The notes under the pieces: generated by a model | What the model saw: only the letters and a program-made list of their open reading frames with translations | Database searches by the model: none | Told to the model about the DNA's origin: nothing | Assembly (NCBI GenBank): GCA_905188025.1 | Contig: CAJJKI010000007.1 | Span: 9,703-73,702 of the forward strand | Direction: 5' to 3' | DNA length: 64,000 bases | Source of the DNA: an uncultured Eubacteriales bacterium | GTDB taxonomy: Bacteria; Bacillota_I; Bacilli_A; RF39; UBA660 | Part shown: positions 7,238-7,798 of the stretch, piece after piece | Numbering within the stretch: position 1 is the stretch's first letter | How the letters are laid out: each line of letters begins with the position of its first letter | Made by a program: the position numbers and the translations under genes

Positions 7238-7344
7238 TTAACTATTTTCTTAATTAATTAACATTCTTTTCATAAAATAAAACTAAGATTTCTCTTGTGT
7301 AAATCTTAGTTGAATTCTAAAAAGTTAACCCTAAGATAAAATGT

Positions 7345-7373
7345 TTGACAAGATAAAAATAACCTGCTATCAT
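7345..7373 (+). promoter_or_regulatory. strong sigma-A-like promoter (ttgaca-17 nt-tatcat) driving the small toxin-like transcript
   Basis: Perfect -35, 17 nt spacer and a -10 hexamer. The predicted TSS of about 7380 coincides with the 5' arm of a long-range inverted repeat. Confidence 0.5.
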
Positions 7374-7438
7374 GTATGAGAACACTTAGTAGTTAGGTAC
7401 TCCTTATTCTTATAAAATAAGATGAGGAGGTGATATTA

Positions 7439-7525
7439 ATGCGTAAGAAAGATTATACTATTATTTTCCAAAATTTTATAATCCTCCTTTTACTATTAAT
7501 AATCATCTTGTTGATTATAAAATAA
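7439..7525 (+). CDS. 28 aa hydrophobic peptide MRKKDYTIIFQNFIILLLLLIIILLIIK, a candidate type I toxin
   Basis: A gaggagg SD lies 8 nt upstream. The product is a single TM helix with a charged N-terminus. The transcript is bracketed by complementary 5' and 3' ends and a terminator. The peptide is below the ORF-track size cutoff. Confidence 0.5.
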   Translation: MRKKDYTIIFQNFIILLLLLIIILLIIK

Positions 7526-7567
7526 AAAACGTACCTAACATAGTTTGTTAGGTACAACCAACGAATA

Positions 7568-7610
7568 GGAGTACTTAGCACTCTGATACTAAGTGTTCCT
7601 TTTTTATTTT
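7568..7610 (+). terminator. rho-independent terminator of the small-peptide transcript
   Basis: Hairpin acttag-cactctgata-ctaagt followed by ttccttttttatttt. The stem sequence is complementary to the predicted mRNA 5' end (7380-7403). Confidence 0.55.
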
Positions 7611-7798
7611 ATGAAGTTTCCTTCATCTATATTCATTATACTAAAAATATTAATGATTATCAATAATTTATACATACAAAGTTTAATAAATGACACTAAA
7701 GTATTCTACTTTAGTACCGTTTATTATAACTAAATAATATCATAAATACTATGAAATATCAACGTTTACTAATACATATTACTTATGGATATGGATAG

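What the first reader, a model, noticed from the sequence alone, without database searches (positions are those of the whole stretch)
7340..7612. Type I toxin-antitoxin-like module: 28 aa hydrophobic peptide on a self-contained transcript whose 5' end is complementary to its terminator stem
Seen in sequence: a near-consensus promoter (ttgaca-17-tatcat, 7345-7373) predicts a TSS near 7380. The 5' end gaacacttagtagttaggtactcc (7380-7403) is the reverse complement of ggagtac...tactaagtgttc (7568-7598) at the 3' end, which itself forms the terminator hairpin. A strong SD (gaggagg) precedes the 28-codon ORF MRKKDYTIIFQNFIILLLLLIIILLIIK, a single TM helix with a charged N-terminus. A perfect 10 bp hairpin (gtacctaaca/tgttaggtac, 7531-7556) follows the stop. 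Established knowledge: mutually exclusive 5'/3' mRNA pairing that controls translation of a small membrane-toxic peptide is the hallmark of Hok/Fst/TxpA/BsrG-type type I TA systems. The antisense RNA partner may be encoded convergently in 7600-7790.
Basis: partly seen in the sequence, partly recalled or inferred. Interest (0 to 1): 0.7.

Follow-up and report, generated by a model that had tools for sequence, protein, structure and literature searches.

The report
Candidate type I toxin-antitoxin module

Summary

New here: the partner RNA can be placed. A convergent promoter (TTGATA-17-TATAAT, 7663->7635) would start an antisense RNA near 7628. Its terminator is the "perfect 10-bp hairpin" at 7531-7555 read on the minus strand. 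The RNA would be about 108 nt and overlap the sense 3' UTR by about 86 nt.

Related copies (77-97% identical) occur in other strains and in unrelated chromosomal contexts. Across them:
- Both promoters' key hexamers, the 5' arm and the hairpin stems are conserved, while spacers, loops and flanks vary.
- All five variable sites in the transmembrane core are synonymous third positions, and one copy has an in-frame codon deletion.
- The cassette is tandemly duplicated as a 385-bp unit.
- Four independent lesions disable the peptide gene and none touches the antisense gene.

A module in another gut MAG (L038), unrelated in sequence, has the same architecture.

No toxin or antitoxin family matches (Pfam, NCBIfam, PHROGs, Rfam). 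Verdict: a credible uncatalogued type I toxin-antitoxin-like family of the Gram-positive layout. Toxicity and transcripts remain untested.

The parts
7345..7373 (+). Sense (peptide mRNA) promoter: -35 TTGACA 7345-7350, 17-nt spacer, TG 7365-7366, -10 TATCAT 7368-7373. Predicted TSS about 7380.
   Evidence: 11 of 12 matches, TG. Across copies the -35 is invariant (0 of 6 sites vary) while the spacer varies at 10 of 17 sites. The L194 copy is detected independently as TTGACA-17-TAAAAT with TG.
7380..7404 (+). 5' arm of the mRNA. It pairs with the 3' terminal hairpin region (7380-7391 with 7587-7598; 7392-7404 with 7567-7579).
   Evidence: Only 3 of 24 sites vary among copies. The same closure is predicted in L194 (z = -9.2).
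7400..7429 (+). Local anti-SD hairpin: CTCCTTAT (7400-7407) pairs with ATGAGGAG (7422-7429). It shares CTCC (7400-7403) with the 5'/3' helix, so the two structures exclude each other.
   Evidence: The pairs are kept in 96% of cells across copies (helix 2).
7424..7430 (+). Shine-Dalgarno GAGGAGG, 8 nt upstream of the ATG.
   Evidence: sequence. Conserved, or GGGAGG, in the copies.
7439..7525 (+). ORF for a 28-aa peptide, MRKKDYTIIFQNFIILLLLLIIILLIIK: charged N-terminus, one TM helix, C-terminal Lys. Stop codon at 7523-7525.
   Evidence: In TM-core codons 10-25, 5 of 5 variable sites are synonymous third positions. L167 has an in-frame 3-nt deletion.
7530..7556 (-). Hairpin HP1. On the minus strand it is the intrinsic terminator of the antisense RNA (stem 7531-7540 / 7546-7555, then TTTTTTATTTT at 7529-7519). 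The sense RNA reads through it because no T-run follows on the plus strand.
   Evidence: minus-strand terminator. Stem pairs are 100% kept across 12 copies, with G-C to G-U changes. L194 equivalent.
7567..7606 (+). Hairpin HP2 plus T-run: the sense-strand terminator. It is also the 3' arm that pairs with the mRNA 5' end, and it is the core antisense target.
   Evidence: The linker 7557-7566 between HP1 and HP2 varies at 9 of 10 sites, whereas the stems are conserved.
7521..7628 (-). Predicted antisense RNA (candidate antitoxin), about 108 nt. It has a 5' hairpin (7626-7611), the complement of HP2, and the HP1 terminator. It overlaps the sense RNA over about 7521-7606 (about 86 nt: 3' UTR plus stop codon).
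   Evidence: fold -35.1 kcal/mol, z = -5.7. The only Rfam lead is a sub-threshold ctRNA_pT181 match on this strand (26.6 bits, E = 0.3).
7635..7663 (-). Antisense promoter: -35 TTGATA (7663-7658), 17-nt spacer, -10 TATAAT (7640-7635).
   Evidence: 11 of 12 matches. The -10 is invariant in all copies (0 of 6 sites vary) while the spacer varies at 14 of 17 and the TSS-proximal stretch at 7 of 8.
7321..7670 (.). Extent of the whole cassette. It equals the 385-bp unit that is tandemly duplicated in strains L004 and L008, and the stretch shared with copies in other genomic contexts.

Best explanation
This is a type I toxin-antitoxin-like cassette of the Gram-positive layout. It belongs to a family not yet catalogued.

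What the sequence and comparisons show
- A strong promoter would drive a sense RNA of about 227 nt (7380-7606) encoding a 28-aa single-helix membrane peptide.
- A convergent promoter would drive an antisense RNA of about 108 nt (7628 to about 7521). It is fully complementary to the last 86 nt or so of the sense RNA.
- Each RNA reads through the other's terminator hairpin and stops at its own.
- The sense RNA's first 25 nt pair with its own terminator region and close the molecule.
- The SD and AUG are buried. A local anti-SD hairpin (7400-7429) covers the SD, and a helix between 7430-7441 and 7494-7506 inside the ORF covers the AUG.

What is inferred
- The 5'/3' closure protects the mRNA ends and keeps the message stable and poorly translated.
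- The antisense RNA targets the same 3' segment that holds the 5' end. Its binding would create a long duplex for RNase III and release the 5' arm.
- Releasing the 5' arm would re-form the anti-SD hairpin and expose the 5' end to decay.
- When the shorter antisense RNA is lost, the stable mRNA would be translated, probably after processing, and the peptide would damage the membrane.
For: Architecture.

Fold significance
- Window copy z = -7.8.
- L194 copy z = -9.2.
- 5'/3' helix matched in 3 of 2000 shuffles.

Conservation footprint across 9-12 copies at 77-97% identity
- Sense -35 and antisense -10 are invariant.
- Promoter spacers vary at 10 of 17 and 14 of 17 sites, and the inter-hairpin linker at 9 of 10.
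- The 5' arm varies at only 3 of 24 sites.

Coding constraint
- Five of five variable sites in the TM core are synonymous third positions.
- L167 has an in-frame deletion.

Behaviour as a selfish, modular unit
- The 385-bp tandem duplication is bounded by the two promoters.
- Copies sit in unrelated chromosomal contexts in L187, L194 and L196.
- L196 carries an extra copy that retains the antisense RNA gene but lacks the toxin 5' half.

Four independent toxin-side lesions, with no lesion in the antisense gene
- A +1 frameshift in L001.
- A 55-nt deletion of SD and start codon in L003, L006 and L140.
- ATG to ATC plus a frameshift in L187.
- A 5' truncation in L196b.

Independent analogue in L038
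- The nucleotide sequence is unrelated, but the parts are the same: a 23-aa hydrophobic ORF, a 5' arm complementary to the 3' hairpin (z = -7.25), an anti-SD that overlaps that arm, and a convergent promoter.
- Predicted SD accessibility is 0.29 in the closed form and 0.00 when the 3' region is blocked.

In 1.5 Mb of comparison DNA, these two module types rank top for 5'/3' pairing among 625 SD-preceded hydrophobic small ORFs.

Literature
- Gram-positive type I families place the antisense RNA on the 3' side (PMC8594479).
- par RNA I has a 5' stem-loop that hides the SD and an upstream helix that hides the 5' end (PMC7472228).
- SR4 binding at the 3' end of bsrG mRNA lengthens the helix that sequesters the SD (PMC3834814).
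Against: - There is no experimental evidence of either transcript, of peptide synthesis or of toxicity.
- The organism is uncultured.
- Within-family covariation is not significant. There is one compensatory pair (7391/7587, A-U to U-A, in 2 sequences), which shuffles reach often. The helices are supported by conservation and by the L038 analogue, not by covariation statistics.
- In the window copy the SD is predicted to be occluded in every conformer, so the activating step is unknown.
- The antisense -35 is weak in some copies (TTGCTT in L194).
- Hydrophobic small ORFs arise easily in 28% GC DNA.
- Frequent disruption of the ORF could also mean that it is simply dispensable.
- There is no similarity to any validated toxin or antitoxin family.
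Confidence: 0.7

Rival explanations
1. The cassette encodes a harmless small membrane protein, such as a regulator or accessory subunit of a membrane complex. It has its own promoter and terminator and is tuned by a cis-antisense RNA. It is not a toxin-antitoxin pair.
For: The same sequence evidence shows only a conserved peptide ORF and an antisense gene. Toxicity is untested. Many small single-helix bacterial proteins are not toxic (established knowledge). The only faint hit, for the L038 peptide, is to the small protein MgtU (E = 1.2, far below the cut-off).
Against: - A useful small protein would not be expected to hop between unrelated loci.
- It would not be expected to duplicate as a promoter-to-promoter unit.
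- It would not be expected to be knocked out four separate times while the antisense gene is kept.
- It has no conserved partner gene, because the neighbours differ in every context.
- Heavy burial of the SD and AUG plus 5'/3' closure is typical of messages that must stay silent.
Confidence: 0.17
2. The element is a non-coding structured repeat or miniature mobile element. The 12-bp inverted repeat (7380-7391 / 7587-7598) would be a terminal inverted repeat, and the ORF would be incidental.
For: A perfect 12-bp inverted repeat flanks about 195 bp. Copies occur at several loci and in tandem.
Against: - Homology between copies extends about 35 nt beyond the left repeat and about 65 nt beyond the right one. 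It ends at the two promoters, not at the repeats.
- The pattern of synonymous-only third-position changes and the in-frame deletion indicates translation.
- A strong SD sits at the correct spacing.
- No copy was found in the plasmid or phage collections or in viral contigs.
Confidence: 0.05
3. The sense RNA is a leader-peptide or attenuator element that controls the downstream plus-strand gene (the DUF285/LRR surface-protein gene).
For: It lies upstream of, and on the same strand as, the variable DUF285 gene. It contains alternative hairpins and a terminator.
Against: - The downstream gene differs in each context: an ABC transporter in L194, unrelated genes in L196 and L187.
- A convergent promoter and about 190 nt separate the terminator from the next ORF.
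- No Rfam leader or riboswitch matches.
- A 20-residue Ile/Leu run is not a known attenuation signal for such genes (established knowledge).
Confidence: 0.03

Closest known systems
par / Fst-RNA II family (Enterococcus faecalis pAD1 and relatives; Weaver 2020, PMC7472228)
   Same: - Convergent promoters.
- A toxin mRNA of about 230 nt and a short antisense RNA encoded on its 3' side.
- An intramolecular 5' stem-loop that hides the SD.
- An intramolecular helix that hides the extreme 5' end of the toxin mRNA.
- The antisense RNA barely touches the ORF.
- The peptide has a charged N-terminus followed by one hydrophobic helix.
   Different: - The peptide lacks the family signature: no PXXXG, no Trp, no charged C-terminal tail. 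There is no Pfam or NCBIfam hit.
- There is no shared bidirectional terminator. Two separate hairpins are each read through by the other RNA, giving an overlap of about 86 nt.
- There is no DRa/DRb pair covering the translation start. The only direct repeat is one 9-nt stretch, GTTAGGTAC, in the 5' UTR, and it is not significant (p about 0.08).
- Here the 5' end pairs with the terminator hairpin itself, which is also the antisense target.
Bacillus subtilis bsrG/SR4 and txpA/RatA (PMC3834814, PMC6562991, PMC3531473)
   Same: [quoted passage not shown]
- The expected outcome is RNase III-assisted decay.
- In bsrG/SR4, binding at the 3' end changes the fold around a distant SD. The L038 analogue is predicted to behave the same way.
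   Different: - In those families the antisense RNA overlaps the ORF and the overlap is 100-140 bp (PMC8594479, PMC6562991). Here it covers only the 3' UTR and the stop codon, about 86 nt.
- The peptides (38-59 aa) are unrelated in sequence.
- No Rfam antitoxin family matches.
- Those systems lie on prophage regions. These copies lie among housekeeping genes.
hok/sok (plasmid R1) and aapA1/IsoA1 (Helicobacter pylori; PMC5416894)
   Same: The full-length toxin mRNA is folded so that translation is impeded. For hok, this is a long-range pairing between the 5' and 3' ends, with activation expected to need processing (established knowledge).
   Different: - In those systems the antisense RNA overlaps the 5' part of the message, and activation is by 3'-end trimming.
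- Here the antisense RNA sits on the 3' arm of the long-range helix itself.
- There is no leader ORF.
- The peptides are unrelated, and those hosts are Gram-negative.

Membership tests
Type I toxin-antitoxin systems (class) | Small (under 60 aa) hydrophobic peptide ORF with a predicted transmembrane helix and its own translation signals. | tested here: met
   The ORF is 28 aa. The mean Kyte-Doolittle hydropathy of its best 15-aa window is 4.06. The SD GAGGAGG lies 8 nt upstream of the ATG. Coding constraint is shown.
Type I toxin-antitoxin systems (class) | An antisense RNA gene with its own promoter and terminator, complementary to the toxin mRNA. | tested here: met
   The promoter is at 7663-7635 and the minus-strand terminator at 7556-7530. 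The -10 is invariant while its surroundings vary. This is met at the sequence level only; the transcript itself has not been observed.
Type I toxin-antitoxin systems (class) | Toxin mRNA highly structured, with a sequestered ribosome-binding site. | tested here: met
   z = -7.8. The predicted unpaired probability of the SD is 0.03-0.04 in all conformers.
Type I toxin-antitoxin systems (class) | The peptide is toxic when over-expressed, and the antisense RNA neutralises it. | not testable with these tools
   Indirect evidence only: four independent ORF-disabling lesions with the antisense gene retained.
Fst/Ldr toxins with par-type RNA organisation | [quoted passage not shown] | tested here: not met
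   The peptide has no Pro, Gly or Trp, and its C-terminus is a single Lys. There is no Fst or other toxin hit in Pfam or NCBIfam at E up to 10.
Fst/Ldr toxins with par-type RNA organisation | A single bidirectional terminator shared by both RNAs. | tested here: not met
   There are two distinct hairpins. HP1 has a T-run only on the minus strand, and HP2 has one only on the plus strand.
Fst/Ldr toxins with par-type RNA organisation | A 5' stem-loop that sequesters the SD and an upstream helix that sequesters the extreme 5' end. | tested here: met
   The anti-SD hairpin is 7400-7429, and the 5' arm 7380-7404 pairs with 7567-7598.
Fst/Ldr toxins with par-type RNA organisation | Direct repeats DRa/DRb that give a second antisense contact over the translation start. 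| tested here: inconclusive
   There is one 9-nt direct repeat, GTTAGGTAC (7392-7400 and 7547-7555). The resulting complementarity between the antisense RNA and the 5' UTR is reached by 156 of 2000 shuffles, and it does not cover the start site.
TxpA/RatA, BsrG/SR4, BsrE/SR5, YonT/SR6 (Bacillus) | The antisense RNA overlaps the 3' end of the mRNA including part of the ORF, with about 100-140 bp of complementarity (PMC8594479, PMC6562991). | tested here: not met
   There is a 3' overlap, but it is about 86 nt and reaches only the stop codon.
TxpA/RatA, BsrG/SR4, BsrE/SR5, YonT/SR6 (Bacillus) | Sequence membership of the toxin or antitoxin RNA family. | tested here: not met
   Rfam gave no match at gathering thresholds, and only ctRNA_pT181 at E = 0.3 in the permissive scan. 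Pfam, NCBIfam and PHROGs gave nothing.
Hok/Sok | Hok-family peptide, an overlapping leader ORF (mok), and Sok antisense RNA at the 5' end. | tested here: not met
   There is no Hok Pfam hit, no leader ORF upstream, and the antisense promoter lies on the 3' side. The only feature in common is a long-range 5'/3' pairing.

The most novel reading that the evidence does not exclude
The antisense RNA may work as a mimic of the mRNA's own 5' end. It is the complement of the 3' arm, so it carries the same GAACACUUAGUA...GUACUCC sequence as the mRNA 5' arm and competes with it for the terminator hairpin.

Displacing the 5' arm, about 200 nt away from the ribosome-binding site, would snap the anti-SD hairpin shut and uncap the 5' end. 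The result would be an allosteric strand-displacement switch that couples translation and decay.

In this reading the closed 5'/3' form is the more translatable one, the opposite polarity to hok. The logic would be shared by modules unrelated in sequence (window type and L038 type) in uncultured, Mollicutes-like gut Bacilli.
Probability: 0.3. Interest if true: 0.55.

Novelty: new member of a known kind. Interest (0 to 1): 0.42.

Why it matters
[quoted passage not shown] This peptide is absent from a collection of 15 billion predicted proteins. HMMER found nothing among 1.84 billion representative proteins.

If confirmed, this would add a new family in an abundant but uncultured lineage of human-gut Bacilli. 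Related MAGs are labelled Bacilli, Tenericutes or Mycoplasmatota.

It would also give a compact 385-bp regulatory cassette in which one 3' hairpin is at once the terminator, the partner of the mRNA 5' end and the antisense target.

The promoter-to-promoter duplication unit and the natural knock-out alleles provide ready-made variants for testing. The architecture-based scan used here could be scaled into a family-independent detector. It looks for an SD, a small hydrophobic ORF and 5'/3' complementarity.

Tried and rejected
Peptide searches
- phmmer of the 31-aa GTG-start form against 1.84 billion representatives gave 0 hits.
- Exact look-ups gave nothing. The single exception was the 37-aa frameshift product of strain L001.

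DNA searches
- blastn of the module against plasmids gave one short chance match in C. butyricum. Against phages it gave nothing.
- Two module-specific patterns in viral contigs gave nothing.
- There is no second copy in the window.
- There is no DNA homologue at the syntenic site downstream of tcdA in 80 related species. The best hit, in L075, was only a hydrophobic membrane-protein gene.
- The back-translated FQNFIILLL pattern in metagenomes was too loose.

Methods that did not work or were inconclusive
- ViennaRNA duplexfold was useless as a 5'/3' score because it builds long, loop-rich duplexes. It was replaced by an ungapped helix score.
- Covariation counts on alignment A2 were not significant for either the long-range or the local structures.

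Readings considered and rejected
- GTG 7430 as the start codon: it lies inside the SD and has no SD of its own.
- MITE.
- Leader-peptide attenuator.
- Membership of Fst/Ldr, TxpA, BsrG or Hok.
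Full report
**1.

The region was read directly.
- The sense promoter is -35 TTGACA (7345-7350), a 17-nt spacer, TG (7365-7366) and -10 TATCAT (7368-7373). It scores 11 of 12 with an extended -10.
- The predicted 5' end GAACACTTAGTA (7380-7391) is perfectly complementary to 7587-7598.
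- 7394-7404 is complementary to 7567-7577.
- A perfect 10-bp hairpin lies at 7531-7540 / 7546-7555.
- GAGGAGG (7424-7430) lies 8 nt before the ATG at 7439. The ORF (7439-7525) encodes MRKKDYTIIFQNFIILLLLLIIILLIIK.

The folding is far beyond chance.
- As RNA, 7380-7612 folds to -71.2 kcal/mol against -36.1 +/- 4.5 for shuffles (z = -7.8). The 5'/3' helix closes the molecule.
- The best single 5'/3' helix is matched in only 3 of 2000 shuffles, and a second perfect 12-bp helix adjoins it.

One caution applies. Promoter-like hexamers are common in this 28% GC DNA, with 12 found against 9.8 expected. The promoters are therefore judged by conservation, not by the match.

**2. The partner RNA can be placed**

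- The minus strand has TTGATA-17-TATAAT at 7663-7635, also 11 of 12.
- This predicts an antisense RNA of about 108 nt, from about 7628 to about 7521.
- It would have three hairpins and folds to -35.1 kcal/mol (z = -5.7).
- It overlaps the sense RNA by about 86 nt, covering the 3' UTR and the stop codon.
- Each RNA reads through the other's terminator hairpin. HP1 has no T-run on the plus strand, and the complement of HP2 has none on the minus strand.

**3. Alternative folds of the sense RNA**

- In the 5' part alone, CTCCTTAT (7400-7407) pairs with ATGAGGAG (7422-7429) and buries the SD.
- The stretch 7430-7441, which includes the AUG, pairs with 7494-7506 inside the ORF.
- The anti-SD shares CTCC with the 5'/3' helix, so the two structures exclude each other.
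- In the window copy the SD is predicted to be paired (unpaired probability 0.03-0.04) whether the RNA is nascent, closed, or blocked at the 3' end as if the antisense RNA were bound.

The existence of a switch is therefore supported. Its polarity is not established.

**4. Source organism**

- The neighbouring phosphoglucosamine-mutase-like protein is identical on many human-gut metagenome contigs.
- The flanking ThiF/TcdA-like gene has its closest species-level relative at 81% amino-acid identity, in a MAG labelled "Bacilli bacterium".
- Further relatives are labelled uncultured Bacilli, Tenericutes or Mycoplasmatota.
- The host is thus an uncultured, AT-rich, Mollicutes-like gut member of the Bacilli.

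**5. Comparative evidence within the sequence family**

Strain contigs L001-L008 and L140 carry the module at the same locus at 85-97% identity. A back-translated pattern search of metagenomes recovered copies that are 77-86% identical (L103, L167, L187, L194 and two in L196) plus the 95%-identical partial copy L165. The neighbours of L187, L194 and L196 are unrelated housekeeping genes.

The conservation footprint matches the proposed parts.

| Element | Variable sites |
|---|---|
| Sense -35 | 0 of 6 |
| Sense promoter spacer | 10 of 17 |
| 5' arm | 3 of 24 |
| Linker between the two hairpins | 9 of 10 |
| Antisense -10 | 0 of 6 |
| Antisense promoter spacer | 14 of 17 |
| Stretch between antisense -10 and TSS | 7 of 8 |

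- Both hairpin stems are kept, with G-C to G-U changes.
- In the transmembrane core (codons 10-25), all five variable sites are synonymous third positions.
- L167 has an in-frame 3-nt deletion near the C-terminus. Amino-acid changes cluster in the polar N-terminus and the last residues.
- L194 independently shows the sense promoter, the antisense terminator and the same closed fold (z = -9.2).

**6. Behaviour as a module**

- Strains L004 and L008 carry two tandem copies 385 bp apart. The repeated unit runs from just upstream of the sense -35 to the antisense -35, about 7321-7670.
- L196 has an intact copy followed by a copy that lacks the promoter, 5' UTR, SD and N-terminus but keeps the 3' UTR and the antisense gene.
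- The peptide gene has been disabled at least four separate times:
  - a +1 frameshift in an A-run (L001);
  - a 55-nt deletion of SD and start codon (L003, L006, L140);
  - ATG to ATC plus a frameshift (L187);
  - the truncation in L196b.
- No copy has a lesion in the antisense gene.

This asymmetry is expected for a toxin and its antidote. It could also reflect dispensability.

**7. An independent analogue**

A scan for an SD followed by a small hydrophobic ORF found very few candidates in 607 kb. One of them, in L038 (a rabbit-gut Bacilli MAG), has an unrelated nucleotide sequence but the same parts.
- An AAGGAGG SD and a 23-aa peptide, MREKFFYQVIIVLLLLALILLTI.
- A 5' UTR whose two segments pair with the two arms of the 3' terminal hairpin (z = -7.25).
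- An anti-SD that overlaps that 5' arm.
- A post-ORF hairpin followed by a T-run on the other strand.
- A convergent TTGACT-18-TAAAAT promoter that starts at the end of the 3' arm.

In L038 the predicted SD accessibility is 0.29 in the closed form and 0.00 when the 3' region is blocked. This suggests that antisense binding restores the anti-SD hairpin.

Across 1.5 Mb of comparison DNA, these two module types rank first for 5'/3' pairing among 625 candidate small ORFs. This is the strongest support for the long-range pairing being functional. Within-family covariation is not significant, with one compensatory pair, 7391/7587.

**8. Comparison with known systems**

No family matches.
- Pfam, NCBIfam and PHROGs give nothing for the peptides.
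- Rfam gives nothing at gathering thresholds in the window, L038, L194 or L196. The permissive scan yields only a sub-threshold ctRNA_pT181 match on the antisense strand.
- The peptide is not in a collection of 15 billion proteins.

The layout is that of Gram-positive type I systems, in which the antisense RNA lies on the 3' side (PMC8594479).
- With par/Fst it shares the SD-hiding 5' stem-loop and the helix that hides the 5' end (PMC7472228). It fails the Fst peptide signature, the shared bidirectional terminator and the DRa/DRb contacts.
- With bsrG/SR4 and txpA/RatA it shares the long 3' duplex and the expected RNase III route. For L038 it also shares the remote effect on the SD (PMC3834814, PMC6562991, PMC3531473). 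Unlike those systems, the overlap here does not enter the ORF, and the sequences are unrelated.
- With hok and aapA1 it shares only an inert full-length fold that involves the 3' end (PMC5416894).

One feature appears in none of the descriptions read here. A single 3' hairpin serves as terminator, as partner of the 5' end and as antisense target.

**9. Verdict**

Its interpretation is supported as far as sequence analysis can go. The locus is best described as a new, uncatalogued family of type I toxin-antitoxin-like modules, that is, a new member of a known kind.

- Shown: the anatomy, its statistical significance, coding constraint, promoter conservation, modular duplication and mobility, asymmetric decay, and an independent analogue.
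- Inferred: that both RNAs are made, that the peptide is toxic, that the antisense RNA neutralises it, and the direction of the conformational switch.

Interest is moderate. A specialist would find it plausible and useful rather than surprising.

Noticed in passing
L038:100-470 (minus strand): A second module type with an unrelated sequence but the same architecture. It has a 23-aa peptide (MREKFFYQVIIVLLLLALILLTI), a 5' UTR complementary to the 3' hairpin, an anti-SD that overlaps that arm, and a convergent promoter at 92-121(+). It lies just upstream of the tcdA homologue, on the opposite strand. The window peptide is its best non-self tblastn hit (52% over 27 aa), which is not significant (E = 0.2).
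   Followed up: partly
window 6319-6499 (+): 6S (SsrS) RNA gene between the phosphoglucosamine-mutase-like gene and the ThiF/TcdA-like gene (Rfam RF00013, 67.6 bits).
   Followed up: no
window 7799-8302 (+); compare L001-L005 at about 7020-9300: The gene downstream of the module is a DUF285/LRR (BspA-like) surface-protein gene. It is 601-759 aa in most strains but only 167 aa in the window and 144 aa in L006. This makes it a strain-variable, partly deleted locus.
   Followed up: no
window 7684-7726 and 7762-7734: A 20-nt-arm hairpin (85% complementary) lies just outside the module, with a further minus-strand promoter-like site (TTGATA-17-TATTAT with TG) immediately upstream of it. The hairpin is absent from the upstream copy of the tandem duplication, so it is not part of the cassette. 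Its function is unknown.
   Followed up: no
window 40132-40242 (+): Another SD-preceded small hydrophobic ORF, MTSIIISLGYIILSFILFFFFALIIFSFYFKINLPK (36 aa). It has an upstream CTCCTT that could act as an anti-SD, but no obvious 5'/3' pairing or convergent promoter.
   Followed up: no
L004:6354-7300 and L008:3514-4421; L196:7590-8215: Copy number of the module varies between strains. L004 and L008 carry two intact tandem copies. L196 carries one intact copy plus one copy that keeps only the antisense RNA gene and the 3' half. The two L004 copies differ at the paired positions 7384 and 7594: the 5' G is in copy b and the 3' C is in copy a. This may reflect exchange between the repeats.
   Followed up: partly
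L196:4261-5692: The contig carrying an 84%-identical copy encodes SpoVAD- and SpoVAC-like sporulation proteins. That host may therefore be a spore-former and a different lineage from the window organism, which would hint at horizontal spread of the module. Whether it is a different species was not established.
   Followed up: no
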